Shown here one piece after another: positions 5,776 through 58,893 of a DNA stretch of 64,000 bases. Each line of letters starts with the position of its first letter. Position 1 is the stretch's first letter. Under the pieces are notes generated by a model. The model was not told the DNA's origin, did not search any database, and saw nothing but the letters and a program-made list of their open reading frames with translations. Position numbers and translations under genes: made by a program. Location: IMG/VR virus record IMGVR_UViG_3300021404_000006, positions 32,001 to 96,000 of that record; one strand, 5' to 3'. This stretch comes from a virus.

Positions 5776-5778
5776 ATC

Positions 5779-34139: not shown

Positions 34140-35264
34140 CTAGACAGGATTGATCTGAAGCAGCCGGGTCTGGGACGCGGACAAGTTGATGCTCGCCGCT
34201 GAGAACGCCCCTCCCGTAGTCCCTGCCCACACGTCCGTAGCCGTGGCGGTCGGGGTGCTGATGTTGAGCTGGTCCAGGGTGAACAGCGCCGACGCGGCCC
34301 CCGAGCCCATGTTCACGAAGCAGACGGCCTGCCCGCCGAGCGGATCGGGCTTCACGAGAGCCTGGATGTTTCCCACCGTTACGGAGTAACCGCACTGCTG
34401 GCCGCTCTGGTCGATCGCAATGAGGTGCTGGTTGGACAGGTCGGCTACCGCAGCGGCGGGCAGCGCGGTCAGGTCAGCCGAGATAAGCAGCGGGCTTGCC
34501 TCCATCGCCCACACCGCGAGCTGGTTCCGGAGATCCTGGACGGTCCACCCGCTGATGCCGGGATAGCCGGGCGCAACCATGTCCAGGTCGTTCCAGTGCC
34601 CCGGACCCGCGTACCCGTGCAGGTGCAGGTCGGCGGCGAGCGCGCTCTGCATGGCCGGGTAGGCGTTCGCCTGGGTCAGCGGGTACTCGTCAGGGGCGAC
34701 GCGCCACATGTTCGCGAAGCCGGCTGAGTCCTGCACGGTCTTCAGGAAGCCTGTCTTTCCCATCTGGTAGACCGGAAGCTCCTGCGAGTACACGACTGAC
34801 GGGTTGAAGTCCCGAAGCGCCTGGCCGAAGAGCCGGTAGTCCTCCGTCAGCGTGTCCTGGTTGGTGTAGGACGGCAGTCCCCCGCACAGGTCCACTTTCA
34901 CCAGGTCGATGCCCCAGTTAGCGAAGGTCTGCGCGTCAAGGGCGTAGTGGCCGCCGCTGCCGGTGAGATGCTGGCAGGTCTGGGTGCCGATCGACGTGTA
35001 GATGCCCATCTTCAGCCCGAGCCCGTGGAGCTGGGCAGCGAGCCAGGGCATGCCGCTGGGGAACTTGGCCGGGTCGGGCTGGAGGGTGCCGTCCGCTGCG
35101 CGTGCCGCGCTGGCCCACCCGTCGTCCAGGTTGAAGTACGTGTAGCCGGCAGCAGACAGGCCGCTGCTTACGAGAGCCTGAGCCTGGGTGAGGACAAGCT
35201 GCTCGCTGATCGCGGCGCGGAAGGCATACCAGGTGTTGAAGCCCATAACAGGAAGATTAGTCAC
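34140..35264 (-). CDS. Glycoside hydrolase family 27 (alpha-galactosidase/melibiase)
   Basis: PVMGFNTW, YFNLDDGW, KFPSGM, WGIDLVKVDLC, GHWNDLDM. Confidence 0.9.
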   Translation of the reverse strand: MTNLPVMGFNTWYAFRAAISEQLVLTQAQALVSSGLSAAGYTYFNLDDGWASAARAADGTLQPDPAKFPSGMPWLAAQLHGLGLKMGIYTSIGTQTCQHLTGSGGHYALDAQTFANWGIDLVKVDLCGGLPSYTNQDTLTEDYRLFGQALRDFNPSVVYSQELPVYQMGKTGFLKTVQDSAGFANMWRVAPDEYPLTQANAYPAMQSALAADLHLHGYAGPGHWNDLDMVAPGYPGISGWTVQDLRNQLAVWAMEASPLLISADLTALPAAAVADLSNQHLIAIDQSGQQCGYSVTVGNIQALVKPDPLGGQAVCFVNMGSGAASALFTLDQLNISTPTATATDVWAGTTGGAFSAASINLSASQTRLLQINPV

Positions 35265-35281: not shown

Positions 35282-37339
35282 TTACCTAATCGGGCAGGCA
35301 CCTGAGGAACATTCCTCGTTGGTGCCGTCTTCGATCGCGGTGGCTACCGCTGCCTCGTACTGCTCGCGGGTAATGCGAGTGTACGGGGCCTGTGGCCTGC
35401 TTGCATCCACCATGATTGTCGTTCCCTTCAGGTAAGGCAGGTAAGCCGCCAGGATGCTGTACAGCTCCGGCTCGGACATGCTGCCCTCGGGAATGTTTAC
35501 CGTGTAGCTGACCGCGTTGTCTGCCCAGCATTCCTGATAAACCCTCTGGACGTTAAGCATGTCCGAGACAGACAGGTCTTCCGTGCTCTCCACCACGTCA
35601 TCAGGAAATCCGAGCGACCGCACCTGGCTGAGCAGGATGTCCTCGGTAGGGTAAACGACTACGGCAGTCATTCCCGACATGTCATATACGTCGTCTTCCA
35701 CCGTGAATCCCTTGCTCATTGCTTCCATCACGGTCTGGAACTGGGCGTCGTCGCGCTTGGAAAAACGAACGCGGCGCTCGAAGTACCTGGCGTAGATCGG
35801 GTGGATGCCCTCAGAGACCCCTGGGAGCTTCGCTACGGACCCTGTAGGGGCGACGGTGGTCACCTTTACCGGCTCGGGGATACGGAGCTTGAAGGCGTAC
35901 TCACGGGCCTCCTGGCGCACCTTGACGTACAGCTCCCTGAGTTCCTTCGGAGCGTAGGCCGGAATGTCACTGTACCTGACGCCGCGCTTGGCCCAGTATC
36001 CCTGCACGCCGAGGTGGCCTAGTCCGATCCTGCGGTTCCTGGCGAGCTTGGCCCGCTGGCCGTCGTCATTCACGTCGCCGTAGGTGGCACGGATGAGAAA
36101 ACGGGTCATCAGCCGGTGGGCCTCAAACATTTCCTCCCGCGTTTTATCCCAGAAATAGTCCATGTTGACGTGGCCGAGGTTGCAGTTCTCCCATGCTTCC
36201 AGCGGGATTTCGCCGCACGGGTTGGTCGCTATTATTTCCCCGATTTCACCTTTCTGGCTAAGCGAGGAATTCCAGTAGCCCGGCTCGCCATTAGCCAGCA
36301 TTCCCTTGACAACCATGGCGTGAACCGCATGCGCCTGATACTGCATAGAATTCGTAGTACTGCCCGGTCCCTTCAAGGACGCGAGGAACTCATCGTCTAT
36401 TTCTACGGAGATATTGGTGGTCCAGTGCAGCCCTGGAATCTTCTTGCACTCCAGGAAATTAAAAATATGAGGGTCGTCCCAGCGGACAATGGACATGCGC
36501 GCCGACCTGCGATTCCCCCCAGAGACAACACATTCTGCTATCGCGTGCTCGATCTCCATGGCATCTAGTGGCGTGAACTCGCGCTTGTCGAACGACCTGT
36601 TGAGAATCGTCGCTACTTCCAGCAGCATGCGCGCGAGAGGAGCAGGACCGCTGGCAGTACCCCCGAAGGTAAGTAGCGGAGACCCGCTCGGACGGACCCC
36701 GGACACGTCGTAGATCACGTCACTGCTGCCTGCAACACACGACTCTTCTTTTCCGTAAAAGGTATCGATGAGATCGCACAGGGCGTCTGCCCAGCCTTCA
36801 CGGCTGTCCTCTACCTCAAGGTCGGGGTAGCTCTCAGCGATGAACTTGTCACTCAGATATGGGTGAAGCTCGGCCATGTCCGCGTGCGCTGAATCGCAGA
36901 TGACATGCGGCTGGACCTGGCAGACAGGAGCACCGTACCTGCCGGTGTACCTGCCGGAGTAGTTGGAGCCGACGCCGCCGCCTTCCATCAGCCGCAGGAA
37001 ACTGAAACGGAAATGGTCGGAGAGCGAATTGCCCCAGCCGGCTACGTGACAGTTGAACAGGTGCTGGCGTTCCGATACTCCTGTAGCCCACAGGTGCCGT
37101 CCGGCCGGAATGATCGCAAACTGGTTCATGTAATGGCAGAGCCGGTTGTACTCGTCCCATACTTCGTCCGGCCAGGTCCAGTCTTTTTCCGGCTGCCCGT
37201 AGACAAGGGCCAGGTTGCCGCGTGCTACCCTTCGCACAGTCTCGGGCCAGGTTTCCCTGCTGCCGTCCTCCTTGTCCCTTGCGTACGTCCTGTTGTAGAC
37301 AACTTCTCCGGTAGGACCAAACGGTACAGCAGCAGACAC
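35282..37339 (-). CDS. nrdJ: Class II (AdoCbl-dependent) ribonucleotide reductase
   Basis: YNRTYAR, LMEGGGVGSN, VVSGGNRRSA, TNPCGEI, CNLG, TTVAPTGS, C-terminal CSSGACP; GTG at 37339 with AGGAG RBS. Confidence 0.92.
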   Translation of the reverse strand: MSAAVPFGPTGEVVYNRTYARDKEDGSRETWPETVRRVARGNLALVYGQPEKDWTWPDEVWDEYNRLCHYMNQFAIIPAGRHLWATGVSERQHLFNCHVAGWGNSLSDHFRFSFLRLMEGGGVGSNYSGRYTGRYGAPVCQVQPHVICDSAHADMAELHPYLSDKFIAESYPDLEVEDSREGWADALCDLIDTFYGKEESCVAGSSDVIYDVSGVRPSGSPLLTFGGTASGPAPLARMLLEVATILNRSFDKREFTPLDAMEIEHAIAECVVSGGNRRSARMSIVRWDDPHIFNFLECKKIPGLHWTTNISVEIDDEFLASLKGPGSTTNSMQYQAHAVHAMVVKGMLANGEPGYWNSSLSQKGEIGEIIATNPCGEIPLEAWENCNLGHVNMDYFWDKTREEMFEAHRLMTRFLIRATYGDVNDDGQRAKLARNRRIGLGHLGVQGYWAKRGVRYSDIPAYAPKELRELYVKVRQEAREYAFKLRIPEPVKVTTVAPTGSVAKLPGVSEGIHPIYARYFERRVRFSKRDDAQFQTVMEAMSKGFTVEDDVYDMSGMTAVVVYPTEDILLSQVRSLGFPDDVVESTEDLSVSDMLNVQRVYQECWADNAVSYTVNIPEGSMSEPELYSILAAYLPYLKGTTIMVDASRPQAPYTRITREQYEAAVATAIEDGTNEECSSGACPIR

Positions 37340-37436
37340 AGGGGGCTCCTCGGTGGCTTCATCAGGGATGTACATCCTATGATGCGCGGTCCTGGTACGG
37401 GCAGCTACCTCTTGTATTACCAGCCATAGAGTGCTA

Positions 37437-37470
37437 GCAACCCCCCGGCGACTGATCGCCAGGGGGTTGC
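37437..37470 (-). terminator. GC-rich hairpin after the Ro60 gene
   Basis: GCAACCCCC-C-GGCGA-ctga-TCGCC-A-GGGGGTTGC. Confidence 0.65.
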
Positions 37471-37484
37471 CGCAGGTCAACAGT

Positions 37485-39116
37485 CTAGCTGAAGTCGCCC
37501 CGGGAGAACCCGGAAATGATATTCGGGGTGTCCGCGTCGAAGCCGGCTACGTCCAGCATGCCGGAATCGGCCGGGTCAGCGATCGTGAAGCCCGTGGAGG
37601 TCATGCCCACCACGATCAGCTTCGCGTCGATCCCCGTCTTCTGCCGGTACTGGCGCAGGGACTCGAACGGGTGCACGCTGCCTGCGTACGTCTCGTTGTC
37701 GGTGGAGACGATGAACGTGTCGTACTCAGCCTTGTTCTGGAGAGCCCAGCGCATCGGCAGGGAGCAGTCCGTACGACCGAAGTTGATGCCCCGGATGGTG
37801 CTCAGGTTGTCGTCCAGGCGGCGGCGCGGCGAGACGGCCAGGTGACGGAACGTGTCAGCGAATCCCATGACCTCGTAGTCCGGCTCGGTTGCCATCGTGA
37901 CCATGGCCATGGCCATCGCGCCTTCCGCGCAGCTGACTACGCCGCCCGGTGCAGCGCTGCGCATCGAACTGGACACGTCCATGCCGATCAGCGTGCGCAT
38001 CCCGGCCGGCTCCACGGTCCCGAAGGACGTGTAGAACGACTGGTCCAGCGTGTCCGTGATCCGGGTGCTCGGCGTCCACGTGCTGTCGCCCTTGATGCTG
38101 TGCCCGAGAGCGTACGTCTTGAGGGCGTACAGGAGCTTGACCGGGTGAACACGGCCCTTGCGGAGCTTGTCTTCGTCGGTCAGCTGGTTGATGATCTTGT
38201 CCAGCGTCGCGCCCTTGGTCAGGCCGAGGTTCGTCAGCCGGGGGAGCTGGCGGATCAGGGCGGTGATGGGCATCCCCTGGTCGATCAGCGCCTCCCAGGT
38301 TTCCGGGTAGGTCAGCGCGATGTCGGGCAGGGCCTCCCACGGCAGGCCGGGGAACTCGCGGATCACGTCGGCGTAAACGCTCTTCTTCGCAGCGGGCATC
38401 TTGGCGAGGCCCTGCACGATGTAGAACGGGTGCGCCCACTCAGGGAACACGGGGATACCGTCGCCGCCACGGAACACACTGCCGTCTCGGCCGCAGGCCC
38501 AGTCGAACAGGGCGCGCTTGTCTGTGTCCGTGGTCTTCGGGTGAACCGTGCGGAGCACGTCGCGGTGCGTCCAGTCCTGGCGCTGGCGGTACTTGATCAT
38601 CTGGTACGACAGGTCACGGGTGTTCTTGTTCAGGTACCAGCTTGCCACGGCCTTCTTGACCGACCGGCCCCAGCCGCGAAGGTGCTCGGCGTATTCAACG
38701 AAGATGAACAGGTGCGTGCCGGTGCGAACGATGTCGTTGAACACTGTTCGCGCGTAACGCTTGTCGTTGTCCGACCCGAACGCGAACACAGCCGCGAGCG
38801 CGAACAGCGCGGGGTTCTGGCGCGGCGCACGGCCGGCTACGGAGATGTCCCTGATCAGCGTAACCAGGCGAGCGCCGTTGTTCTTGGCGAAGTCGATAAC
38901 GAACGCCGCGTTCTGCCGGGTGTACTCCTGCTCCTTCTGGTAGTACGTGCCGCCGTCCGTGCCGAGGGTGAGGAACCGCTTCATCCGGTCTTCCCCTGCG
39001 ACCTCGAACACGTAGCCGCCCGCGTTGTTCTGAACCTGGTCATCGCGGCCGAAAACCTTCTCCGTCTGGGGCGTGACCGTATTCCTCGTGCGGATGCCGG
39101 AGAGTGCGTCGTTCAT
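37485..39116 (-). CDS. rsr: Ro60/TROVE-vWA ribonucleoprotein (Rsr orthologue), 543 aa
   Basis: NNAGGYVF, RFLTLGTDGGTYY, RTGTHLF, GWGR, KYRQRQDWTHRDVLR, RVHP, MIDAS DVSSSM, TDCSLPM, TDNET, GFD; ATG at 39116 with AGGAG RBS. Confidence 0.95.
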   Translation of the reverse strand: MNDALSGIRTRNTVTPQTEKVFGRDDQVQNNAGGYVFEVAGEDRMKRFLTLGTDGGTYYQKEQEYTRQNAAFVIDFAKNNGARLVTLIRDISVAGRAPRQNPALFALAAVFAFGSDNDKRYARTVFNDIVRTGTHLFIFVEYAEHLRGWGRSVKKAVASWYLNKNTRDLSYQMIKYRQRQDWTHRDVLRTVHPKTTDTDKRALFDWACGRDGSVFRGGDGIPVFPEWAHPFYIVQGLAKMPAAKKSVYADVIREFPGLPWEALPDIALTYPETWEALIDQGMPITALIRQLPRLTNLGLTKGATLDKIINQLTDEDKLRKGRVHPVKLLYALKTYALGHSIKGDSTWTPSTRITDTLDQSFYTSFGTVEPAGMRTLIGMDVSSSMRSAAPGGVVSCAEGAMAMAMVTMATEPDYEVMGFADTFRHLAVSPRRRLDDNLSTIRGINFGRTDCSLPMRWALQNKAEYDTFIVSTDNETYAGSVHPFESLRQYRQKTGIDAKLIVVGMTSTGFTIADPADSGMLDVAGFDADTPNIISGFSRGDFS

Positions 39117-39150
39117 CTGTGTCTCCTCTTTCAATCTGGCCGGGCATAGG

Positions 39151-39302
39151 TAAAGCCCTGGTGAGCGTGTTGTAGGAACCGGGAAGTGTGCTTTTATCAT
39201 GCGTCGCACTCCGCTCCCCGAGGGGAACAGGCGGGATTCAAACCCGCATTTTCTTTTGCTGAGAAAGATAACCGATTGCCTGTCCGGCTCACCAGGGCTT
39301 TA
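39151..39302 (-). ncRNA. Y RNA-like (YrlA-type) RNA, 4th in array
   Basis: 16-bp terminal stem, GAGCCGGACAGGCAATCGGTTATC motif, T-arm GCGGG-TTTGAAT-CCCGC, closed acceptor-like stem, D-like arm; next to Ro60. Confidence 0.8.
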
Positions 39303-39313
39303 ACCTGGCTGAG

Positions 39314-39452
39314 CAAGACGAACGTGTGTTCTGCACCGGGTATTTATACTGCTGCTCCATCCGCTGAGCTACCCCGGGAATTATCCCAGGAGAGGGATTC
39401 GAACCCCCGTCCTTCAGTTCCGAAGATAACCGATTGCATCCGGCTCGTCTTG
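39314..39452 (-). ncRNA. Y RNA-like (YrlA-type) RNA, 3rd in array
   Basis: Terminal stem CAAGACGAGC/GTTCGTCTTG, GAGCCGGATGCAATCGGTTATC, T-arm GGGGG-TTCGAAT-CCCTC, closed acceptor stem, D-arm TAGCTCAGCGGATGGAGC. Confidence 0.88.
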
Positions 39453-39468
39453 AAGTATTTAGTTGTAG

Positions 39469-39610
39469 CACGGCGAACATGTGATTGGCAACCGGGTCGG
39501 CTCCCTGGTGGGGGAGCTTTCTGCCCTATGCAGGCCTGGCTTTGCCCTTGCGGGGTGCCTGGCAGTGGAATCGAACCATTGATAACCGATTGGCCGTCCG
39601 GCTCGCCGTG
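39469..39610 (-). ncRNA. Y RNA-like (YrlA-type) RNA, 2nd in array
   Basis: Terminal stem CACGGCGAGC/GTTCGCCGTG, GAGCCGGACGGCCAATCGGTTATC, T-loop TGG-TTCGATT-CCA, further hairpins. Confidence 0.8.
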
Positions 39611-39626
39611 AAGCTATTGAGTTGGG

Positions 39627-39700
39627 AGGCGTGCGAACGTGTGTGTGACTACCGGGGGAATCTGCGAAGTGATAACCGATAGTCTTCCGGCTCGCTGCCT
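39627..39700 (-). ncRNA. Minimal Y RNA-like RNA (no tRNA module), 1st in array
   Basis: AGGCAGCGAGCCGGAAGACTATCGGTTATC...CCGGTAGTC-ACACACAC-GTTCGCACGCCT; same two-stem frame as the other three units. Confidence 0.75.
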
Positions 39701-39703
39701 ATG

Positions 39704-39732
39704 AGTGTACCCTACACCATTTTAGTGGCACG
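39704..39732 (-). promoter_or_regulatory. Putative sigma70-type promoter for the Y RNA-Ro60 operon
   Basis: Minus-strand TACACT (39709-39704) just before the first RNA, with a GTGCCA-like -35 about 16-17 bp upstream. Confidence 0.4.
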
Positions 39733-39750
39733 GGGTGCATCGTTTCGTAC

Positions 39751-39793
39751 AACTTCCTGGCTGCCGGATGTATTCCCCGGTCAGCCGGAGGTT
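39751..39793 (-). terminator. Hairpin terminating the secreted-protein gene and insulating the Y RNA array
   Basis: AACTTCCTGGCTG-CCGG...CCGG-T-CAGCCGGAGGTT immediately after the stop at 39795. Confidence 0.5.
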
Positions 39794-39794
39794 T

Positions 39795-40754
39795 CTAGAC
39801 GATGCCTACGCCGCCCTTGATGTAGAAGTTGTCGGCTCCGAAGTTCGACACGTCAAGGTACAGGGCACCCGTGGAGGTACCGTCCTGCGTCGATACCACC
39901 GGGGACGCGTTCCAGTCGGTGTTAGCCGCCTGCAACGGCGCACCTGCGTTGCCGTGGCTGACGTTGCCGTGGTTTCCGTAGTCGTTGGCGCTGACCTTCA
40001 CGTGCGCGAACCGCACCAGCTCGTTCGGTGCCGAATGGCTGAGCGAGCCTGCGTCAGACGCCGGGACCGGGGTGCCCGTGATGGCAGGAGCCTTGGCGGT
40101 GTCGGAGATAACGCCCGCGTCCGTCTCGGTGAAGACAGCGCCCGTGAACGCCGGCGAGACGAAGGAGCCCACCATGGCCGGGTGGTTCAGGTCAGTCGCC
40201 TGGAAGGACACGCTGTCCGCCGGGTTGCCGCTGAAGGCGTGGAACGGGTTCGACTTCATGTCAACGTCCACCGTGTCGTTCACCGGCACGTTGGTCAGCA
40301 GAGCCTTGAAAGAGAGGTTGCCCATGGCGTTAGTCGCGCCCATCGGGTTAACCACGCCGTTCTCGCACGGGTTGCCGTTCTGGATTGCAGGACCGAAGGT
40401 GCCAGTAGCGGCTACAACGTCCACCAGCCCGTTCCCGATGTTGATGTCACCGATCTGTGCTGCCTGCCCCGTGGCTTCGTCGCAGAGGCCCAGGCCCACG
40501 CCTCCGAGCACGTTCATCGGGGTGCTTACCGGCAGGTTGCTCAGGCTGCTGTTACCCGAGCTGCCGATGTAGCTGTTCTCGTGGGTGAAAGCCACCTGGT
40601 TAAGCGAGTGCGCGAACCATCCTGCGACCGCGTTAGTGCCTGCGTTGCTGTAAGTCACGGTGGAGGTAACGGCCGCGTTCGCCGTGGCGCTGAGCGAAAG
40701 CCCGCCCGCGAGCACGGCTGCGCCGGCTGCGAAAAGCCATTTCTTACTTAGCAT
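39795..40754 (-). CDS. Secreted beta-rich hypothetical protein
   Basis: Sec signal MLSKKWLFAAGAAVLAGGLSLSATANA. Confidence 0.75.
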   Translation of the reverse strand: MLSKKWLFAAGAAVLAGGLSLSATANAAVTSTVTYSNAGTNAVAGWFAHSLNQVAFTHENSYIGSSGNSSLSNLPVSTPMNVLGGVGLGLCDEATGQAAQIGDINIGNGLVDVVAATGTFGPAIQNGNPCENGVVNPMGATNAMGNLSFKALLTNVPVNDTVDVDMKSNPFHAFSGNPADSVSFQATDLNHPAMVGSFVSPAFTGAVFTETDAGVISDTAKAPAITGTPVPASDAGSLSHSAPNELVRFAHVKVSANDYGNHGNVSHGNAGAPLQAANTDWNASPVVSTQDGTSTGALYLDVSNFGADNFYIKGGVGIV

Positions 40755-40837
40755 TGCCTGCCTTCCTTAATGCTTTGCTTCCGGGGTGAACTCCGCTACT
40801 CTATCTTATCTTCCCAGAGCAGGGTGTGACTTTCCCG

Positions 40838-41236
40838 TTAACCGAGGATCTTTACGAGCATCTTGCAGTCGCAGTGCTGGGGATCAGACGCAGGCTTATC
40901 GCACCAGCCGCTGTGCTTCGGGTAATCGGGGTGCAGTTTTCCGTAGATCTTCCAGCAGGTGCACAGCTTGTCGCTGTACCAGCGGTAGCCGGGCTTGCGC
41001 GTGCCCGTGTACGAGCGGTGCCGCCTGCATCCGGTCACGATGGTGCGCCTGGCGAACTCCAGCGTCACGTCGGTCCAGCCCTCGGTAGCATCGGCGTTGG
41101 TCGCCTCCACCCTGATAGCCGTGTGATCGTGCGATCCCTTGCAGTGGGCGAACATGCCGCTCACCGCGATGCGGTTGCAGTACTGGACCTTGCCGCTCGC
41201 CTTGGTTACCTTGAAGATCCTGTCGTCCTTAGCCAC
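40838..41236 (-). CDS. Cys/His-rich hypothetical protein
   Basis: Co-oriented ORF. Confidence 0.5.
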   Translation of the reverse strand: MAKDDRIFKVTKASGKVQYCNRIAVSGMFAHCKGSHDHTAIRVEATNADATEGWTDVTLEFARRTIVTGCRRHRSYTGTRKPGYRWYSDKLCTCWKIYGKLHPDYPKHSGWCDKPASDPQHCDCKMLVKILG

Positions 41237-41477
41237 GGGTGGCCGCCGGAGGAGAGGGGTATGTCACGGGTGCCCAGTACTCTACGGAGATGTCGTCGTG
41301 GCCGCTCCAGTGATAGAAAGTTACTCCGTCGAAGTAGCCCAGGTCCGCGTTGCCGTCGCCGTCGATGATCCATACCAGCTCACCGTCTAGCTTCGAAGGC
41401 GGCCCTGTCTTGCTCTTGGCTTCGTAGTCGAACGCGCGCCACTTGGGCCGGACGTTATCCGCCGTGCACATCAGCAT
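41229..41477 (-). CDS. Hypothetical protein (DUF551-like C-terminus)
   Basis: VEYWAPVTYPSPP ending. Confidence 0.45.
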   Translation of the reverse strand: MLMCTADNVRPKWRAFDYEAKSKTGPPSKLDGELVWIIDGDGNADLGYFDGVTFYHWSGHDDISVEYWAPVTYPSPPAATRG

Positions 41478-41727
41478 TCCCGTAGTCGTATTCGTTCACT
41501 GCCTTGTCCAGGTACTTCCGTACTTCCTCAAGCGACGGCCTGACCGCGTTGAGCTGCCTGATGAATGCCCTGATGTGAGGCGGCATGTCGTTGGGAAGGT
41601 CTTCCATTCGCAGGCCGTAGCAGAAGATCAGCTCATGCACGCCGCCTTCGCAGTTAGCCTTCCATCCCAGGTCGGCGCTGTGCTCATACCGGGTCATCTT
41701 CATCTTCCTCCTTGTAGTAATACGCAT
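41455..41727 (-). CDS. Hypothetical protein
   Basis: Operon packing. Confidence 0.45.
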   Translation of the reverse strand: MRITTRRKMKMTRYEHSADLGWKANCEGGVHELIFCYGLRMEDLPNDMPPHIRAFIRQLNAVRPSLEEVRKYLDKAVNEYDYGNADVHGG

Positions 41728-41909
41728 CGAAGAAACAGCTGTTCCACTGGCCTTTGATCTCGTAGAACTCCAGGTGCGAACTAGACTGGCCCACTACCAT
41801 TTGCCGGATGGTATAAACCTTTCCTAGCTCCAGGACTTCAGCGGCTTGCGCGCGTTCTCGCTGGTAGCCAGCGTCGAACGTGACGCACTTGGCGTGGACT
41901 GGAAACATG
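41684..41909 (-). CDS. Hypothetical protein
   Basis: AGGAGG RBS before MFPVHAKC. Confidence 0.5.
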
Positions 41910-41915
41910 GTCCTC

Positions 41916-43907
41916 CTAGATATAGATTTTCTGGCCGCCGAGGAACGACCGGACGATGCGCGGATCGCGCACCAGGTCACCCAGCTGGCCCGCCTTGTTC
42001 TTCATCAGCTCGCGCCACCGTGACTCGATCGTGTTCACCGCCACGATGTCGATGATGCTCACCGGCTCTGTCTGCCCGGCACGGTGCAGCCTGTCCTCAG
42101 CCTGGTCGCGCTGCCAGAATGCCGGCGGGGACTCAAGGAAGACAGCGGTGTGGGAACGCGTGAGCGTCAGGCCCACGCCTCCGGCTACCACGTTGGCGCA
42201 CAGCAAGTCCAGCTCTCCCGCTTGAAAAGCGTGGCGCGCGGCGTCTTTCTTCTTCGCGTTAACCTGCCCGGTTATATAGGCCACGCGGTAGCCTGCTTTC
42301 TCCGCGCGAGCCCCGGCCAAGTTGACCAGCTGGGTGTGCGGAGCGAAGCACAGGATAGGCTCGCCGCCGGACTCCTCCATGATCTGCATCAGCTCATCGA
42401 TCTTCCAGCACGGCTCGCGCATGGACACCTTGTAGTGCGGGATCATCTCGCCGTAGGTGAGGCTGCCTTCCTTTTCGTCCAGCACCATCTCGATTTCGAC
42501 ATCGCACGCGGAGCTGGCCATCTGGGTTAGGCGCTGCATCTGGGCGAGAGTGGACATGACAGGCAGCGGCTCATCCGTATCCGGAATGTGAGCCAGCATG
42601 TCCGCTTCCATTTCGTCGTAGGCCTTGCGGTAAGCAGCAGGGATTTCGACGGCGCGGGTGCTGTAGGTCTTGTCAGGGAGATCGCTCAGTACATCCCGTT
42701 TCGAGATGTACCGCATCGTGCCCTGCATCATGGTGTAGAACTCCTGGCGGTTTACTGTCGTCAGGCCTTCCACGTGAGGCTTGCCGTAGTCCCGGGGCGT
42801 GCGGTCGGAGTAACGGTAGGCGTAGCGCTCCTGGTCGGGGAAGCTGCGTACGTCCAGTACCGTGCTGGCCCGCCAGAAGCCGTTCACGTCACGGGTGATC
42901 GGGGTGCCGGACATGGGGAACACGTAATCGACTACGCGCGCTATCTTCCCGGCCGCGCCTGACTGCTTCGTGGTGGTGTTGCAGAGTGCGTGCGCCTCGT
43001 CCATGACGATGGTCTTCGGGGCGAGGAAGTCAAGCAGCGGGGGCAGCACGTGCCGTTCGGAATCGATTGGCCGTATGATGCTGTAGCCCTTGGACGGCAG
43101 GATCTTAGGGCAGTCCTCGTGACGCGGCATCCTCGCGCCCTTGACGCCGGCCTTTGCCTCATCGAACTGCTTCTGTAGCCGCCTGTTCCACTCGATCCGG
43201 TACCCGCAGCGCTCACACGCGCCTAGCTCGGGAGGCTGCATGTCCTGCCGGAAGACGTGCCAGCTCATCACGTACACCTGGTAGCGGGAGCTGAGCTTCC
43301 TGCGGTTCGGTCCCTGGTAACGGGCTACCGTCCAGCCGGGGAAGCACTTGCCTATCTCTTCCATCCAGGTGCCGCAGACAGAGGCGGGAGCGACTACGAA
43401 TACGGGGAAGGGATCTAGGCCCCGCGCCTGTAGCTCCGCGATCGTCAGAAGAGCAGTAAAGGTTTTACCTGTACCCGCTGCGTCACCGAAGAAGAACCGC
43501 TTGTTCAGCGCGCCGACGTAAGCGCCGGACAGCTGGTGGGGCATCGGGGTACGGTCGATCGTACTCAGGTCGAATTTCAGGTCTTCAGGGTTCTGGTACT
43601 CCGCGAAGCGGCGCTCGAACTCGCCGGCGATCCACAGGTTGAGGTCAGGTTCCGGCCTCCACTTGAAGCCATGCCGTTCCGCGAGCGCCGCGAGCTGGGT
43701 AACCATCGCCCAGGTGAGCGGCAGCGACATCTCCCCGGTGCCGTCCTTGGTTTTCTTGGGGATAGCGGTGAGCTGGCACTTGCCCGGCAGCAGTAGTTGT
43801 CCGATCTCCCGTACCTGCCAGTCGCCGCCGATGACGCTGATCCTCATCTGGGCTTCGGAGCCTACGCGCCCCGTGAGGATTCCAACGTCGTACCGGCCGT
43901 CGTTCAT
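41916..43907 (-). CDS. SNF2-family DNA helicase
   Basis: GDAAGTGKT, VVAPAS, MDEAH, SGTP, GGVGLTL, QAEDRLHRAGQ. Confidence 0.92.
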   Translation of the reverse strand: MNDGRYDVGILTGRVGSEAQMRISVIGGDWQVREIGQLLLPGKCQLTAIPKKTKDGTGEMSLPLTWAMVTQLAALAERHGFKWRPEPDLNLWIAGEFERRFAEYQNPEDLKFDLSTIDRTPMPHQLSGAYVGALNKRFFFGDAAGTGKTFTALLTIAELQARGLDPFPVFVVAPASVCGTWMEEIGKCFPGWTVARYQGPNRRKLSSRYQVYVMSWHVFRQDMQPPELGACERCGYRIEWNRRLQKQFDEAKAGVKGARMPRHEDCPKILPSKGYSIIRPIDSERHVLPPLLDFLAPKTIVMDEAHALCNTTTKQSGAAGKIARVVDYVFPMSGTPITRDVNGFWRASTVLDVRSFPDQERYAYRYSDRTPRDYGKPHVEGLTTVNRQEFYTMMQGTMRYISKRDVLSDLPDKTYSTRAVEIPAAYRKAYDEMEADMLAHIPDTDEPLPVMSTLAQMQRLTQMASSACDVEIEMVLDEKEGSLTYGEMIPHYKVSMREPCWKIDELMQIMEESGGEPILCFAPHTQLVNLAGARAEKAGYRVAYITGQVNAKKKDAARHAFQAGELDLLCANVVAGGVGLTLTRSHTAVFLESPPAFWQRDQAEDRLHRAGQTEPVSIIDIVAVNTIESRWRELMKNKAGQLGDLVRDPRIVRSFLGGQKIYI

Positions 43908-56305: not shown

Positions 56306-57808
56306 ATGAGCACCGAGGATGTCCTCGCAAGGCAGGCAGCGCTCAGCCACTTGGACATACACACGCCCATGGCGCTGGAAGAAAAGCCCAAACCGAAACC
56401 CAAGCGCAAGCCGAAGCAGGATGCGCGAGCGAAGGCATCTCAGGCGGGCTACAAGAAGGCACTGAGGGCGTCTACCCGTGAGCAGCGGATCAGGAAGTCG
56501 GAAGAGGCACGCGTCCGCAGGGCACAAGAGAAACTGGCGGCCAGGGAAGCCGAGCGGCAGGCGAAGATAGACGAGGCCGCTGAAGGTTACTGCGAGCTGC
56601 CCGCTGTCGTACTGCGCGACGGCACGGTCAGGCACATCGACTACCCCACAGCCATCGAGATCGTCAGCCAGTACCTGGGCGCGCTCGGCGTGGACGTGGA
56701 GCACAGCGGCTACGACACAGGGGACAAGCGGTACGAGCTGCGGACGGTCCAGCTGGGCGGCAGGGACATGACCGTGGTGTTCGACGCGGACTCGGCGGCC
56801 CAGCGGATGATCGTCAAGTGGGCGCTGGCCTCAGCCGAGAAGCTGCACGCGTTCGCCGCCATCGCTGACCTGATCCCGCTCGTGCTGGCCGGCCTGACCG
56901 ACTGGGATACCGCCTGGGGCAAGATGTACGACGGCGTGCTGTACGTGAAGCTGACTGACCCGCGCCTGGCAGGATCGGAAGCCAACGGGCTGAAAGACCT
57001 AGCCCGCGACATGCTGCACGAGTACGCCGTAAGCCCTGAAGCCGAGAAGAAGAAGAACGCTCTCTTCAAGGCGATCGGCTGCAACATCAACACCGACAGC
57101 TCCACCCCTGCCGAGAAGAACGGCTGGAACATGGTGAGCAAGTTCGCGGTGACCATGATCCGCTACGCCGGGTGTGACGTACTGGACCTGGCTGCCGTAC
57201 TGGATGCGCTCCCCCCGCTCCCTGTGCCTGAGTCCGTGCTTGACCGCGAAAGGGAAGTCCAGGCATCGTGCGCCCGGGTAGCCCTTGACGGCTTCGCCCT
57301 GGACTACGAGCACATCAAGGCGAAGATCGCGGAACACGAGGCCAGCAAAGCAGAGCACCAGCGCAACACCGAGATCCTGACTGACGGCAAGGTCGTCAAC
57401 CCGAGCGCTCCCGGCGTCGGCGCTGCCCTGATCGAGCTGTACCCGCACCTCGCATCGGTACTTGACCGCAGCGAGGACACAGGAGAGCCGAGCGCAGCCA
57501 AGAAGTCCCTCGCCAAGATCCAGGGCGACGGTATCGATGCGGTTACAGCCAGGGAGATCCTGGCCTACCGGCACGATGTTACGACGCTCAGCCTGCTTCT
57601 CCGGCCCTTGGAGAACCTGTGCGTGAACGGCGACGGCAGAATGCGGCCCACGGTTTACACGATCAACGCCGACACCGGCCGCATGTCCTGCGTACGTCCC
57701 AACGGCCAGCAGTTCTCGCGGCGCGGCGGCATCAGGGCATGCGTCGTAGCCGGCCTGATGGATATCGAACTCGTTAACGGCAAGTGGAGGGTGGTGCTGG
57801 CAGCGTGA
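56306..57808 (+). CDS. Family A DNA polymerase, N-terminal subunit (3'-5' exonuclease and thumb)
   Basis: GVDVEHSG, YAGCDV, ADTGRMSCVRPNGQQ...GGIRACVVA, then stop. Confidence 0.85.
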   Translation: MSTEDVLARQAALSHLDIHTPMALEEKPKPKPKRKPKQDARAKASQAGYKKALRASTREQRIRKSEEARVRRAQEKLAAREAERQAKIDEAAEGYCELPAVVLRDGTVRHIDYPTAIEIVSQYLGALGVDVEHSGYDTGDKRYELRTVQLGGRDMTVVFDADSAAQRMIVKWALASAEKLHAFAAIADLIPLVLAGLTDWDTAWGKMYDGVLYVKLTDPRLAGSEANGLKDLARDMLHEYAVSPEAEKKKNALFKAIGCNINTDSSTPAEKNGWNMVSKFAVTMIRYAGCDVLDLAAVLDALPPLPVPESVLDREREVQASCARVALDGFALDYEHIKAKIAEHEASKAEHQRNTEILTDGKVVNPSAPGVGAALIELYPHLASVLDRSEDTGEPSAAKKSLAKIQGDGIDAVTAREILAYRHDVTTLSLLLRPLENLCVNGDGRMRPTVYTINADTGRMSCVRPNGQQFSRRGGIRACVVAGLMDIELVNGKWRVVLAA

Positions 57809-57957: not shown

Positions 57958-58142
57958 TGCGAACTGAGTATGTTTCTCCCTTTGACATGGACCCCGGTAA
58001 CGGGTGGGACGGCCACAAGGACTGGCTTAACTACCGGGAGCAGTTCGTACGCGGCGAAGATGCTGACTGGGCTTTCGAACAGATGCTATTCCGGGTATCT
58101 TCTACGATTCCTCATGCAGCAAAGAGGCGACGTGAAGACTGA
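57957..58142 (+). CDS. 61-aa ORF inserted between polymerase halves
   Basis: GAGGAG RBS; overlaps the start of the polymerase C-half. Confidence 0.5.
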   Translation: MRTEYVSPFDMDPGNGWDGHKDWLNYREQFVRGEDADWAFEQMLFRVSSTIPHAAKRRRED

Positions 58143-58893
58143 AATGATAGGCATTTCTGCCGACTTCAGCGGCTGCGAGATCATCGTCGCGGCAGGCTTG
58201 TCGGGAGACAGGCAGCTCTACGAGGCAGAGACCAGCTCCCGGTGCTACGCGTGCGACGGCGACCCGTGCTCGTGCGGCAAGTACCATACCGGCCTGCACT
58301 GGCTGGCGGCTCACCTGACATTCGGGAAGGATGCCGTCAAGGAGCACCGCTACCAGGCCAAGGCGGTTATCTTCCGCAAGCTGTTCGGCGGTCAGCCCGA
58401 CTCCGATGTCGCGGCTAAGATCGCCCGGGTATTCGACACTGAGATCGCTCCCGTCTACAAGGCGTGGGACGACTGGCTCCGCGTGATGTACACCCAGGGC
58501 AGCCTGCTCTACCGTGACTACTCCGGCCACGGCGAGAACTATTCCATGAACCTGGAAGGCCGCAAGCGCTATGCGATTTACCGGACCTATTCAGGCCGCC
58601 AGATCTATTCAGGCAAGGGCGAGCACGCCGTAGGCAACTACGCCATTCAGGGAACAGCACGTGAACTTCTGGTAGACGGAATTCGTGTCTGGAGCCATTC
58701 GAGGTGGGGCCACCTGCCTATCCTCCCGGTGCACGACCAGATCATTGCGTTCGTACCCAGGGAGGAAGCAGACGAGGCCAGCGCCGTACTGCGCAGGTGC
58801 ATGGAAACGGATGTGCTTTCCACTGATGACTGGAACGTGCACATCGACGCTGACCTGGACAAGCCATTCAAAGCGTGGCCGGATAGCTCGTGA
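58132..58893 (+). CDS. Family A DNA polymerase, C-terminal catalytic subunit
   Basis: ISADFSGCE (motif A), RYQAKAVIF..LFG (motif B), NYAIQGTA, PVHDQI (motif C); GTG start with GAGG RBS. Confidence 0.85.
   Translation: MKTEMIGISADFSGCEIIVAAGLSGDRQLYEAETSSRCYACDGDPCSCGKYHTGLHWLAAHLTFGKDAVKEHRYQAKAVIFRKLFGGQPDSDVAAKIARVFDTEIAPVYKAWDDWLRVMYTQGSLLYRDYSGHGENYSMNLEGRKRYAIYRTYSGRQIYSGKGEHAVGNYAIQGTARELLVDGIRVWSHSRWGHLPILPVHDQIIAFVPREEADEASAVLRRCMETDVLSTDDWNVHIDADLDKPFKAWPDSS

What the first reader, a model, noticed from the sequence alone, without database searches (positions are those of the whole stretch)
39314..39452. Circularly permuted tRNA mimic with near-canonical D and T arms
Seen (minus strand): after TTATC come ACTG-AAGGAC, the T-arm GGGGG-TTCGAAT-CCCTC, an acceptor-like stem closed by a loop (TCCTGGGA-TAAT-TCCCGGGG), TAGCTC-AGCGGATG-GAGC as D-arm, and CAGT pairing back to ACTG. 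The tRNA is opened at the anticodon and the Ro-binding stem takes its place, so there is no anticodon and no CCA end. Known: this is the YrlA architecture. The neighbouring units have more degenerate versions (T-loop TTTGAAT or TTCGATT, altered D-arms). Inference: the graded divergence suggests different partners, such as modification enzymes, RNase P, T-box-like sensors or toxins.
Basis: partly seen in the sequence, partly recalled or inferred. Interest (0 to 1): 0.7.

Follow-up and report, generated by a model that had tools for sequence, protein, structure and literature searches.

The report
Phage Y RNA with tRNA-like module
This is a small non-coding RNA gene of the known YrlA (bacterial Y RNA) type, one of four in a row in front of a phage's Ro60 gene, and its middle part really is a tRNA with its ends rearranged; it is a new and divergent member of a known family rather than a new kind of element.

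Summary
Window 39317-39449 (minus strand) is unit 3 of four tandem Y-RNA-like genes directly upstream of a phage rsr/Ro60 gene (37485-39116, minus). It has a closing stem with a conserved 5' motif. Inside that lie a T arm, a closed 7-bp acceptor-like hairpin, a canonical D arm and a 4-bp anticodon-stem-like helix.

- **tRNA test:** ARAGORN finds no tRNA in the native sequence. It calls a 73-nt tRNA once the two halves are re-joined (0 of 1000 shuffles).
- **Family test:** a covariance model built only from eight other phages' units, including the published ET08 YrlA, scores it 63.7 bits (E 1.6e-13). This is the best hit in the 118.9-kb phage genome.
- **Rfam:** the YrlA model gives 22.8 bits against a cut-off of 69. 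The published ET08 copy also fails, at 37.4 bits.
- **Covariation:** stems covary across 37 related units.
- **Neighbours:** units 2 and 4 keep a T arm but no canonical D arm. Unit 1 is a plain hairpin.
- **Expression:** contigs from three soil metatranscriptomes cover the array.
- **Elsewhere in the genome:** two more Y-like units lie in the phage's tRNA cluster.

The "circularly permuted tRNA" reading of YrlA is already in print.

The parts
39317..39449 (-). Unit 3 (the finding): complete YrlA-type Y RNA gene, 133 nt
   Evidence: Model R1, built without any sequence of this phage: 63.7 bits, E 1.6e-13, model 1-132 of 132. Rfam YrlA 22.8 bits on 39350-39416. Fold.
39425..39446 (-). Unit 3, conserved 5' strand motif (presumed Ro60/Rsr-binding strand), ending in the YUAY element UUAU(C)
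   Evidence: Exact pattern match, 4 in the window against 0.00 expected. The same motif lies upstream of rsr in other phage contigs.
39443..39449 (-). Unit 3, outer closing stem, 5' strand (pairs with 39317-39323)
   Evidence: MFE and centroid folds. Helix 1 has changes on both sides in 5 of 7 pairs across 37 units.
39317..39323 (-). Unit 3, outer closing stem, 3' strand
39332..39339 (-). Unit 3, 3' strand of the inner (Ro-binding) stem; pairs with 39427-39438 leaving one bulged A
   Evidence: Duplex fold of the two arms. Helix 2 is 98.3% paired across 37 units.
39414..39418 (-). Unit 3, tRNA positions 39-43 (3' strand of the anticodon-stem-like helix)
   Evidence: 4 of 5 pairs with 39348-39352. 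5 of 5 with different letters in L014_c, L023_c and L023_d. ARAGORN drawing.
39409..39413 (-). Unit 3, 5-nt variable loop; its last C is placed to pair with G15 (Levitt pair)
   Evidence: Positions 15:48 are G:C here and A:U in the L014 counterpart. G:C in 9, A:U in 4, other in 2 of 15 units.
39392..39408 (-). Unit 3, T arm (5-bp stem, 7-nt UUCGAAU loop)
   Evidence: Helix 3 is 97.8% paired, with 3 of 5 pairs changed on both sides.
39372..39391 (-). Unit 3, closed acceptor-like hairpin (7 acceptor-type pairs, one further closing pair, 4-nt loop)
   Evidence: 7 of 7 pairs. Across 15 units, own strands pair at 6.33 of 7 against 3.64 of 7 for strands taken from different units.
39354..39371 (-). 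Unit 3, U8-A9 and the D arm (4-bp stem, 8-nt loop with GG)
39348..39352 (-). Unit 3, tRNA positions 27-31 (5' strand of the anticodon-stem-like helix)
39629..39697 (-). Unit 1: short Y-RNA-like hairpin with the same closing-stem motif and no tRNA-like module
   Evidence: Motif. Fold -21 kcal/mol, z -2.88. Its own arms rank 1 of 37. 74% identical to L014 unit a. Not found by R1 at E up to 1.
39472..39607 (-). Unit 2: Y-RNA-like unit with a weak T arm (UUCGAUU loop), three further hairpins and no canonical D arm
   Evidence: R1 33.9 bits, E 4.2e-06.. Its own arms rank 1 of 37.
39160..39293 (-). Unit 4: Y-RNA-like unit with a 5-bp/7-nt hairpin before the T arm, a T arm (UUUGAAU loop), an 8-bp acceptor-like hairpin and a non-canonical D-like hairpin (14-nt loop, no GG)
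   Evidence: R1 55.8 bits, E 1.5e-11. Fold z -2.60.. Rfam tRNA 22.2 bits (below its cut-off of 29) across its hairpin and T arm.
37485..39116 (-). rsr / Ro60 orthologue (543 aa), the presumed protein partner
   Evidence: Pfam vWA_Ro60 2.2e-65 and TROVE 5.6e-40. PHROG 850 RNA-binding protein. PDB 2nvo (D. radiodurans Rsr) 8.8e-112.
39698..39794 (-). Intergenic stretch upstream of unit 1, where a promoter would be expected (none identified)
   Evidence: The sigma-70 consensus scan found 0 sites. One metatranscriptome contig reaches 39731. GC falls to 0.53-0.58 across most of the array (one 200-nt window reaches 0.605) against 0.62-0.69 in the flanks.

Best explanation
The finding is a gene for a YrlA-class bacterial Y RNA carried by a phage. 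It is the third of four tandem Y-RNA-like units in front of the phage's Ro60 (rsr) gene.

**Proposed mechanism.**
1. The array is transcribed on the minus strand from upstream of unit 1, possibly together with rsr, and cut into RNAs of about 70-135 nt.
2. In each RNA the 5' and 3' ends pair into a bulged stem. Its conserved 5' strand (GAGCCGGA...AUCGGUUAUC) binds the outer face of the phage Ro60 ring.
3. In unit 3 the rest of the RNA folds like a tRNA whose acceptor end is closed by a loop. Its anticodon stem runs on into the Ro60-binding stem.
4. This L-shaped module is what host tRNA-recognising proteins would see. Candidates are TruB, Dus enzymes, possibly RNase P because of the 7-bp acceptor-like stem, and an effector such as PNPase. 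The RNA would tether or gate Ro60 during infection.

**Shown here:**
- the sequence anatomy;
- its tRNA-likeness;
- its homology and covariation with other phage YrlA-type units;
- the adjacent intact rsr gene;
- presence of the array in RNA libraries.

**Inferred from work on other species:** Ro60 binding, processing, modification, and the effector.
For: **Context.**
- The window is part of a complete 118,922-bp phage record.
- rsr lies immediately downstream on the same strand.

**Repeated design.**
- There are 4 exact motif matches against 0.00 expected.
- Start-to-start spacing is 158, 156 and 90 nt.

**tRNA-likeness.**
- Rfam YrlA aligns to the T, AS and D part: model positions 23-85, 22.8 bits, E 0.028 in an 801-nt search.
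- The re-permuted unit is called a tRNA. The native unit is not, nor are 0 of 1000 shuffles. Of 18,248 other windows treated the same way, only the 2 that overlap the unit are called.

**Independent family model.** R1 was built from 8 units of other phages, including the published ET08 YrlA.
- Unit 3 scores 63.7 bits, E 1.6e-13, full length. This is the top hit over the whole genome (window plus L025-L028).

**Covariation.**
- On the 37 units that R1 finds in 15 sources, 96.5% of cells pair, against 81.3% in shuffles (0 of 500 reach it) and 28-43% with slid partners. 16 of 23 pairs change on both sides.
- The acceptor-like stem pairs at 6.33 of 7 with its own strand and 3.64 of 7 with other units' strands. 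It is fully paired in 10 of 15 units, against 4 of 210 cross-combinations.
- The anticodon-stem-like helix is 4 of 5 here. It is 5 of 5 with three different sequences in L014_c, L023_c and L023_d.
- The Levitt pair switches from G:C here to A:U in L014_c.
- The closing arms pair better with their own partner than with the mean of the others in 37 of 37 units, and rank first in 15 of 37.

**RNA libraries.**
- In three soil metatranscriptome runs from three studies, contigs at 99% identity or more cover the array.
- One 569-nt contig spans 39163-39731 across all four units. One 407-nt contig spans 39159-39562. Two overlapping contigs span 39155-39653.
- The per-contig depth figures are 63.5 and 53, against 2-4 for the other contigs of this stretch in the same runs. 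The tool warns that such figures cannot rank genes.

**Literature** (passages and sections read).
- YrlA RNAs lie within 4 kb of rsr on the same strand in 254 bacteria and 22 phages. M. smegmatis YrlA and YrlB are cut from one precursor upstream of rsr (PMC4201824).
- Two Y-like RNAs upstream of a Thermus phage Ro60 bind it in vitro (PMC12135203).
Against: - Rfam's own YrlA model does not reach its cut-off (22.8 against 69 bits) and aligns only the tRNA-like core.
- The 5' motif departs from the published GNCGAAN0-1G by one position (GCCGGA).
- The folding energy of unit 3 is not better than shuffles (z -1.47).
- Its own arms rank only 8 of 37 in the duplex test.
- An alternative small hairpin competes with the anticodon-stem-like helix in the MFE fold.
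- The alignment used for the pair counts was fitted to the model, which favours the structure.
- The RNA-library evidence comes from contigs only. These show neither strand nor ends nor level, and DNA carry-over is not excluded.
- No binding, processing or modification was or could be tested.
- The host is unknown.
Confidence: 0.9

Rival explanations
1. The array is mainly a cis-acting leader of the rsr mRNA. In this reading it is a structured 5' UTR through which Rsr (or uncharged or damaged tRNA-sensing factors) controls rsr translation or stability, and it does not yield free trans-acting RNAs.
For: - Unit 4 ends 43 nt before the rsr start codon.
- No convincing terminator lies between the array and rsr. 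The scan found one weak minus-strand site, which sits inside unit 4's own stem.
- Co-transcription with rsr is known for M. smegmatis (PMC4201824).
Against: - Each unit closes on itself with its own covarying stem, like free Y RNAs.
- Two further units with the same stem design or the same tRNA-like module lie about 66 kb away in the tRNA cluster on the other strand, far from rsr.
- All three RNA-library contigs stop within 39155-39163, at the predicted 3' end of unit 4, and do not run into rsr. This is a weak hint only, because no DNA contig bridges the place.
- The two readings are not exclusive.
Confidence: 0.06
2. It is a permuted or broken tRNA gene. That would make it either a decayed remnant of a tRNA pair or a precursor that is rearranged into a working tRNA.
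For: - The re-permuted sequence passes ARAGORN.
- Part of the unit is 91% identical over 35 nt to tRNA-Arg genes of two actinophages.
- The literature discusses an origin of YrlA from dimeric tRNA transcripts, and a resemblance to permuted pre-tRNAs (10.1101/312249).
Against: - There is no anticodon loop. The tRNA call used 7 native flanking bases as a stand-in loop, so the anticodon it names is meaningless.
- The place of the anticodon loop is taken by a conserved stem whose motif recurs upstream of rsr in many phages.
- The design is conserved with covariation, which is not what decay gives.
- The unit is not close to any of the phage's own 28 tRNAs (best local score 33 of a possible 66).
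- No bacterial enzyme for such a rearrangement is known (10.1101/312249).
Confidence: 0.02
3. The tRNA-like module works mainly as a decoy, independently of Ro60. It would soak up host tRNA-directed defence nucleases or toxins, or tRNA-modifying enzymes, during infection.
For: - The phage invests heavily in tRNA supply, with 28 ARAGORN tRNAs.
- The module is a close tRNA mimic.
- The closed acceptor end and missing anticodon loop would make it resistant to enzymes that attack those sites (inference).
Against: - No defence or counter-defence gene was linked to it here.
- Units 1, 2 and 4 lack a full tRNA module yet keep the Ro-stem motif, so the stem is the common denominator.
- There is tight linkage to rsr in 9 of the 15 loci found by the motif.
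Confidence: 0.04

Closest known systems
Mycobacterium smegmatis YrlA (Chen et al. 2014, PMC4201824)
   Same: - Lies upstream of rsr on the same strand, with further Y RNAs beside it.
- Has a T arm, closed acceptor-like stem and D arm.
[quoted passage not shown]
   Different: - No sequence comparison was made here, because the M. smegmatis sequence was not fetched.
- Here there are four tandem units instead of two.
- The bases after the acceptor-like 3' strand do not begin with C, so a CCA end would need trimming.
- Cleavage was not tested.
Mycobacteriophage ET08 YrlA (named in Chen et al. 2014; L024:2198-2339 here)
   Same: - Phage-borne and upstream of the Ro-like gene.
- Same order of parts.
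- Also flanked by short hairpin units: three units in a row in ET08.
- Also below the Rfam cut-off, at 37.4 bits.
   Different: - ET08 has a local hairpin plus an AGGUC variable loop, and only 3 of 5 pairs at positions 27-31/39-43. This unit has 4 of 5 and no local hairpin in the preferred reading.
- The ET08 motif reads GGCCGA rather than GAGCCGGA.
- The Rsr proteins are 46% identical.
Salmonella Typhimurium YrlA (Rfam RF02553; crystal structure described in 10.1101/312249)
   Same: - tRNA-like L-shape with a closed acceptor stem and no anticodon loop.
- The anticodon stem continues into the Ro60-binding module.
- Conserved UA near the junction, described there as resembling circularly permuted tRNAs (passages read).
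   Different: - 6-bp acceptor-like stem there, 7 bp here.
- The Rfam model aligns only positions 23-85 of 114 to this unit.
Thermus phage phiLo Yrl1/Yrl2 (PMC12135203)
   Same: Y-RNA-like genes directly upstream of a phage Ro60 gene. They were shown to bind it and to form complexes with host PNPase in vitro (passages read).
   Different: - The passages read mention a CGAA motif and a stem-bulge-stem for those RNAs, but no tRNA-like module.
- Two units rather than four.
Deinococcus radiodurans Yrn1
   Same: Ro60-bound Y RNA with a T-arm-like element.
   Different: - The order of the T and D elements relative to the 5' end is opposite, and the hairpin between them takes the place of the anticodon arm (PMC4201824).
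- That order is seen here only in another phage's unit, L023:689-823, not in the window.

Membership tests
YrlA-class bacterial Y RNA (Chen et al. 2014) | Encoded within about 4 kb of a Ro60/Rsr orthologue, on the same strand | tested here: met
   The unit ends at 39317 and rsr starts at 39116, both on the minus strand. rsr has TROVE and vWA_Ro60 domains and matches PDB 2nvo at 8.8e-112.
YrlA-class bacterial Y RNA (Chen et al. 2014) | 5' and 3' ends form a long stem that carries the Ro60-binding site | tested here: met
   MFE and centroid folds. Helices 1 and 2 are 94.4% and 98.3% paired across 37 units, with changes on both sides in 5 of 7 and 3 of 5 pairs. The four paralogues in the window covary in the variable part of the stem.
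YrlA-class bacterial Y RNA (Chen et al. 2014) | GNCGAAN0-1G motif near the 5' end | tested here: inconclusive
   All four units read GCCGGA at that place, one position off the published motif. ET08 reads GCCGA. Whether the variant binds Rsr is not testable here.
YrlA-class bacterial Y RNA (Chen et al. 2014) | Conserved T and D stem-loops with a variable stem-loop (AS) between them, in the order T - AS - D | tested here: met
YrlA-class bacterial Y RNA (Chen et al. 2014) | Conserved YUAY after the 5' strand of the stem | tested here: met
   UUAU within GGUUAUC in all four units.
YrlA-class bacterial Y RNA (Chen et al. 2014) | tRNA tertiary-pair nucleotides kept, with a Levitt pair 15:48 that covaries | tested here: met
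   G15:C48 here and A15:U48 in the L014 counterpart. G:C in 9, A:U in 4, other in 2 of 15 parsed units. GG in the D loop and UUCGA in the T loop.
YrlA-class bacterial Y RNA (Chen et al. 2014) | Bound by Rsr; carries pseudouridine 55 and dihydrouridine | not testable with these tools
   Needs immunoprecipitation and modification mapping.
Rfam RF02553 (YrlA) | Score at or above the gathering cut-off of 69 bits | tested here: not met
   22.8 bits on model positions 23-85. The same model gives 37.4 for the published ET08 YrlA, 36.6 for phage Sparky, 35.4 for the L014 counterpart and 35.7 for this phage's tRNA-cluster copy. It gives 0 YrlA matches at the cut-off in 10 related loci. The cut-off therefore excludes every actinophage example tested.
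Actinophage YrlA-type units (model R1 built here from 8 units of other phages) | Significant full-length match to sequence plus structure | tested here: met
   63.7 bits, E 1.6e-13, positions 1-132 of 132. E-values are rough because calibration was shortened.
tRNA (RF00005 / ARAGORN) | Contiguous cloverleaf with free acceptor ends and an anticodon loop | tested here: not met
   ARAGORN finds 0 in the window and 0 in the native unit. Rfam has no tRNA match on the unit; the 22.2-bit match at 39223-39358 spans units 3 and 4 and is below its cut-off of 29.
tmRNA, including permuted tmRNA | tRNA-like domain plus a tag reading frame | tested here: not met
   Only a 15.5-bit fragment match to the T-arm region, against a cut-off of 47. 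ARAGORN finds no tmRNA.

The most novel reading that the evidence does not exclude
The phage carries a six-member Y-RNA repertoire: four graded units in front of rsr and two more embedded among its tRNA genes. One of the two in the tRNA cluster is a full YrlA mimic sitting directly after a tRNA-Pro gene. In this reading the members are distinct adaptors, released by the tRNA-processing machinery. They couple phage Ro60 to different host tRNA-handling or RNA-decay enzymes, or shield tRNAs from host defence. The tRNA-cluster copies would be living examples of the proposed birth of YrlA from neighbouring tRNA genes.
Probability: 0.15. Interest if true: 0.6.

Novelty: new member of a known kind. 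Interest (0 to 1): 0.35.

Why it matters
**What this report adds.** YrlA-type Y RNAs, their tRNA mimicry and their presence in phages are established.
- This is a divergent member that the curated Rfam model misses, as it misses every other actinophage example tested here. Phage Y RNAs are therefore being under-annotated. In ET08 a hypothetical ORF is even called across them.
- Tandem sets of three or more Y-like units upstream of rsr recur in at least five related phage records besides this one. The units range from a plain hairpin to a full cloverleaf without an anticodon loop.
- This phage also has Y-like units inside its tRNA cluster, far from rsr. The published searches found nearly all candidates within 4 kb of rsr.

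**If confirmed by RNA work.** Such phages would be convenient systems for asking what the tRNA-like module of Y RNAs is for. The papers read here state that this question is still open.

Tried and rejected
- **Folding energy as evidence.** It is not significant for unit 3 (z -1.47) or unit 2 (z -0.93), so I relied on comparative evidence instead.
- **Close relatives.**
  - Megablast of 37400-40800 against the phage collection gave no match.
  - The search for related loci with the Rsr protein in viral contigs gave 17 pattern matches but no relative.
  - Relatives were reached only through the RNA motif.
- **blastn of the array against phages.** Only two 35-nt matches to tRNA-Arg genes. This is generic tRNA similarity.
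- **Origin from the phage's own tRNAs.** Best local score is 33 of 66, so this was rejected.
- **MAFFT alignments A1-A3.**
  - They put the 3' strand of the variable acceptor-like stem in inconsistent columns. I therefore measured that stem without an alignment and gave the model only its two outer pairs.
  - RNAalifold on A1 proposed a local pairing of the 5' motif with itself (columns 5-10 with 20-25). It never covaries, and I did not adopt it.
- **Motif hit L012.** It has no closing stem and looks like chance or coding sequence.
- **Promoter scan.** Nothing found.
- **Phage-encoded partners.** No RtcB, CCA-adding enzyme or PNPase domain in the genome. Pfam scans of 71 ORFs also found none (11, 60; these were a subset of the 144 ORF candidates listed).
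- **Plus-strand ORF 39186-39611.** No Pfam family at E up to 0.1. I take it as spurious.
- **Read laying.**
  - Stretches of 36500-42500 without cover in the runs say nothing.
  - The DNA(?) run X4 holds mostly 35-nt pieces at 90-95% identity on the T arm. These are other organisms' tRNAs and are no evidence.
  - No DNA contig bridges 39155-39163, so the common stop of the three RNA contigs there is less than the tool's "weak hint".
- **Tools and papers not available.**
  - The 2020 Annual Review on bacterial Ro60 is not held.
  - Supplementary tables of PMC4201824, which list Y RNA candidates per genome, were not seen. They may already record multiple units per phage.
Full report
**What is at the coordinates.**
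Read on the minus strand, 39449 to 39317 is a 133-nt unit. Its parts, in order, are:
- a 7-nt strand that pairs with the last 7 nt of the unit;
- the motif GAGCCGGA, a few variable bases, then AUCGGUUAUC;
- ACUG(A);
- a 5-nt variable loop;
- a T arm with a 5-bp stem and a UUCGAAU loop;
- a hairpin in which the seven bases after the T stem pair 7 of 7 with the seven bases before U8-A9, plus one further closing pair around a 4-nt loop;
- a D arm with a 4-bp stem and an 8-nt loop that begins with A and contains GG;
- A26 and GCAGU, which pairs back to ACUG;
- a short linker;
- the 3' strands of the two closing stems.

**Context.**
- The window is bases 32001-96000 of a complete 118,922-bp phage record with direct terminal repeats.
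- It carries tail, tape-measure, thymidylate synthase, ribonucleotide reductase, helicase, primase and polymerase genes.
- Portal, protease and capsid genes lie outside the window.
- Immediately downstream of the unit, on the same strand, lies a 543-aa Ro60 orthologue at 37485-39116. It matches vWA_Ro60 at 2.2e-65, TROVE at 5.6e-40 and D. radiodurans Rsr (PDB 2nvo) at 8.8e-112.
- 357 phage records in the phage collection encode a Ro-like protein, mostly phages of Mycobacterium and Streptomyces. None is more than 49.5% identical to this one.

**Four units, not one.**
The 5' motif occurs four times on the minus strand between 39267 and 39693, against 0.00 expected by chance. Start-to-start spacing is 158, 156 and 90 nt. 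Each unit closes on itself, and in each the variable bases inside the motif are matched by complementary bases in its own 3' strand.

| Unit | Coordinates | Content |
|---|---|---|
| 1 | 39629-39697 | Plain hairpin |
| 2 | 39472-39607 | Weak T arm (UUCGAUU loop) and three other hairpins |
| 3 | 39317-39449 | The finding |
| 4 | 39160-39293 | 5-bp/7-nt hairpin, T arm (UUUGAAU loop), 8-bp acceptor-like hairpin, D-like hairpin with a 14-nt loop and no GG |

Unit 4 ends 43 nt before the rsr start codon. GC falls to 0.53-0.58 across most of the array (one 200-nt window reaches 0.605), against 0.62-0.69 in the coding flanks. The plus-strand ORF across the array has no Pfam match.

**Is the tRNA likeness real?**
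- ARAGORN finds no tRNA or tmRNA in the whole window and none in the native unit.
- I joined the 3' half of the module (acceptor-like 5' strand through GCAGU) to the 5' half (ACUGA through the acceptor-like 3' strand plus one base). Seven native flanking bases stood in for the missing loop.
- ARAGORN then called a 73-nt tRNA with all four arms. The anticodon it names comes from the stand-in loop and means nothing.
- None of 1000 shuffles of that sequence was called.
- The same slicing recipe on 18,248 other 133-nt windows was called in only two cases. Both overlap this unit.
- Rfam's YrlA model aligns its positions 23-85 (T arm, AS, D arm) to 39350-39416 at 22.8 bits.
- The folding energy of the unit is not better than that of shuffles (z -1.47). 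Thermodynamics alone would not have singled it out.

**Relatives.**
- No close relative of the DNA or of the Rsr protein was found directly.
- A scan of viral contigs for the 5' motif returned 15 loci.
- In 9 of the 15, an rsr homologue lies in the fetched DNA downstream of the motif.
- Several carry tandem sets: five units in L014 (the closest; the fetched N-terminal 65 residues of its Rsr are 61.5% identical), five in L021, seven or eight in L023, four in L009.
- The published example, mycobacteriophage ET08, has three units in a row upstream of its Ro-like gene. The annotated hypothetical gene gp219 lies across them.
- L014:10613-10741 is the counterpart of unit 3 at 73% identity. Unit 3 is at most 68% identical to its own neighbours.
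- Unit 1 likewise matches L014 unit a at 74%. Units 2 and 4 have no clear counterpart.

**Independent family test.**
I built a covariance model (R1) from eight units of other phages only, with a structure of 23 pairs. The seeds include ET08 and Sparky. Results over the whole phage genome:

| Hit | Bits | E-value |
|---|---|---|
| Unit 3 (full length, best hit) | 63.7 | 1.6e-13 |
| Unit 4 | 55.8 | 1.5e-11 |
| Unit 2 | 33.9 | 4.2e-06 |
| Unit at genome 5707-5798 | 32.7 | 8.2e-06 |

- Real tRNAs gave only partial or weaker matches.
- Unit 1, which has no tRNA-like part, was not found at E up to 1.
- E-values from this model are rough.

**Covariation.**
- Across 15 sources R1 found 37 units at E up to 1e-4.
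- On their model-guided alignment, 96.5% of cells form standard pairs.
- That compares with 81.3% in 500 shuffles (none reaches the observed value) and 28-43% when partners are slid by 1-3 columns.
- 16 of 23 pairs show changes on both sides.
- That alignment is fitted to the model, so I also made alignment-free counts on the 15 of 19 listed units that have a canonical D arm:
  - The acceptor-like stem pairs at 6.33 of 7 within a unit and 3.64 of 7 between units.
  - It is fully paired in 10 of 15 units, against 4 of 210 cross-combinations.
  - Positions 15:48 are G:C in 9, A:U in 4 and other in 2.
It is 5 of 5 with three different sequences in L014_c, L023_c and L023_d.
- The ET08/Sparky-type units have 2-3 of 5 there and a local hairpin instead. 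14 of 15 units were printed before the script stopped.
- The MFE fold of unit 3 prefers an alternative small hairpin at that place.
- For the closing arms, each of 37 units pairs better with its own 3' arm than with the mean of the others. 15 of 37 rank first; unit 3 ranks 8th.

**Rfam membership.**
- At Rfam's own cut-off nothing in the window matches any family.
- YrlA reaches 22.8 of 69 bits, so by that criterion the unit is not a member.
- The same model gives 37.4 bits to the published ET08 YrlA, 36.6 to Sparky, 35.4 to the L014 counterpart and 35.7 to another copy in this genome.
- It calls no YrlA in ten related loci.
- The cut-off therefore fails for the actinophage branch as a whole. 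I do not read it as evidence against membership of the family as defined in the paper.

**Expression hint.**
- Four public runs hold part of 39100-39800. Three are soil metatranscriptomes from three studies.
- Their contigs lie on the stretch at 99% identity or more.
- One 569-nt contig covers 39163-39731, across all four units. One 407-nt contig covers 39159-39562. Two overlapping contigs cover 39155-39653.
- All three sets stop within 9 nt of the predicted 3' end of unit 4 (39160) with no loose end. No DNA contig bridges that place, so this is at most a faint hint of an RNA end.
- The per-contig depth figures for the two long contigs are 63.5 and 53. The other contigs of this phage stretch in the same runs show 2-4. 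The tool states that such figures cannot rank genes and that DNA can be present in RNA libraries.
- A Listeria phage study reports highly transcribed regions upstream of an Rsr-like gene and suggests they are Y RNAs (PMC12282133, passage read).

**More units elsewhere in the genome (outside the window).**
- The best Rfam YrlA match in the genome is at 4577-4703 on the plus strand: 35.7 bits over the full model. It has a T arm, a long acceptor-like hairpin, a canonical D arm and its own closing stem.
- It sits 3 nt after tRNA-Pro(cgg) and before another tRNA-Pro-like gene.
- At 5705-5800, between tRNA-Leu(cag) and tRNA-Thr(tgt), lies a unit with an exact copy of the rsr-array 5' motif and a closing stem, but no tRNA-like part.
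- It is 74% identical to L015:1507-1595, which also sits beside a tRNA gene with no rsr in the fetched DNA. L011, L018 and L022 are similar.
- The published survey found nearly all candidates within 4 kb of rsr on the same strand (PMC4201824, section read). I could not see its supplementary tables.

**How it most likely works.**
- Shown here: the anatomy, the homology, the covariation, the intact neighbouring rsr gene, and presence in RNA libraries.
- Taken from work on other species (PMC4201824; 10.1101/312249; PMC12135203; passages and sections read):
  - Y RNAs bind the outer face of Ro60, mainly through the 5' strand of the stem.
  - They gate the Ro60 cavity and tether Ro60 to PNPase.
  - The YrlA module folds as an L-shaped tRNA mimic and is modified by TruB and DusA.
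  - The 7-bp acceptor-like stem of M. smegmatis YrlA makes it an RNase P substrate, followed by CCA addition.
- Inference: unit 3, with 7 of 7 acceptor-type pairs, is the member of this array most likely to be seen by RNase P and other tRNA enzymes.
- The phage encodes no RtcB, CCA-adding enzyme or PNPase. Any such partner would therefore be the host's.
- What the module recruits is unknown in every system.

**Rivals.**
- A purely cis-acting rsr leader is made unlikely by the self-contained units and the distant copies.
- A decayed or rearranging tRNA gene is made unlikely by the conserved Ro-stem in place of an anticodon loop and by the covariation.
- A Ro60-independent decoy is not excluded but has no support.

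**Novelty.**
- This unit is a new, divergent member.
- Three things may be new:
  - the recurrence of tandem sets of three to eight units in phages;
  - the graded series within one array;
  - Y-like units inside a phage tRNA cluster.
- My three literature searches found no description of these. The library lacks most subscription papers and the supplements were closed, so I do not claim they are unreported.

Noticed in passing
outside the window: G000:C1:4577-4703 (+) = L001:1501-1627: A fifth, full YrlA-type unit: T arm, long closed acceptor-like hairpin, canonical D arm and its own closing stem. It lies inside the phage's tRNA cluster, 3 nt after tRNA-Pro(cgg), about 66 kb from rsr and on the other strand. 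It is the best Rfam YrlA match in the genome (35.7 bits, full model; fold z -2.15).
   Followed up: partly
outside the window: G000:C1:5705-5800 (+) = L025:5707-5798: A sixth Y-like unit between tRNA-Leu(cag) and tRNA-Thr(tgt). It has an exact copy of the rsr-array 5' motif and a closing stem, but no tRNA-like part (R1 32.7 bits). Similar units sit beside tRNA genes in L011, L015, L018 and L022, where no rsr is in the fetched DNA.
   Followed up: partly
L023:689-823 (+): In another phage's array, one unit with the usual closing-stem motif holds a tRNA-like part in the normal order: D arm, short anticodon-like hairpin, T arm. Rfam tRNA scores it 32.8 bits at 726-797. The tRNA here is inserted by its acceptor end rather than permuted, which is the Yrn1-like orientation.
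   Followed up: no
outside the window: G000:C1:4795-4866, 6113-6215, 7464-7540, 9960-10035 (+): Several structured elements in the tRNA cluster are not called by ARAGORN:
- a second tRNA-Pro-like gene (Rfam tRNA 41 bits);
- a closed multi-hairpin element with a T-arm-like hairpin;
- two cloverleaf-like sequences with odd D arms, one followed by an encoded CCA.
   Followed up: no
L024:2297-2470 (mycobacteriophage ET08 gp219): The annotated hypothetical protein gene gp219 lies across the published YrlA and the next Y-like unit upstream of the Ro-like gene. It is probably a spurious ORF call over RNA genes.
   Followed up: no
window 39255-39271 (-); L009:12330-12440 (-); L014:10760-10832 (+): A hairpin right after GGUUAUC, with the stem UUUCU/AGAAA and a 7-nt loop, recurs with nearly the same stem sequence in unit 4 and in units of two other phages. 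It is conserved rather than covarying, and in unit 4 it looks like an anticodon arm placed before the T arm.
   Followed up: no
window 34140-35264 (-): A phage-borne alpha-galactosidase (Melibiase_2 1.1e-54 plus its C-terminal domain) lies two genes downstream of rsr, next to a class II ribonucleotide reductase. This is an unusual cargo for a phage.
   Followed up: no
window 56306-57808 and 57970-58893 (+): Two adjacent ORFs match successive parts of the same DNA polymerase family (PHROG 17, profile positions 720-1003 and 1009-1225). The polymerase gene appears to be split or interrupted.
   Followed up: no
window 39155-39731: Three soil metatranscriptome runs from three studies hold contigs that cover the Y RNA array at 99% identity or more. 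All stop within 9 nt of the predicted 3' end of unit 4.
   Followed up: partly
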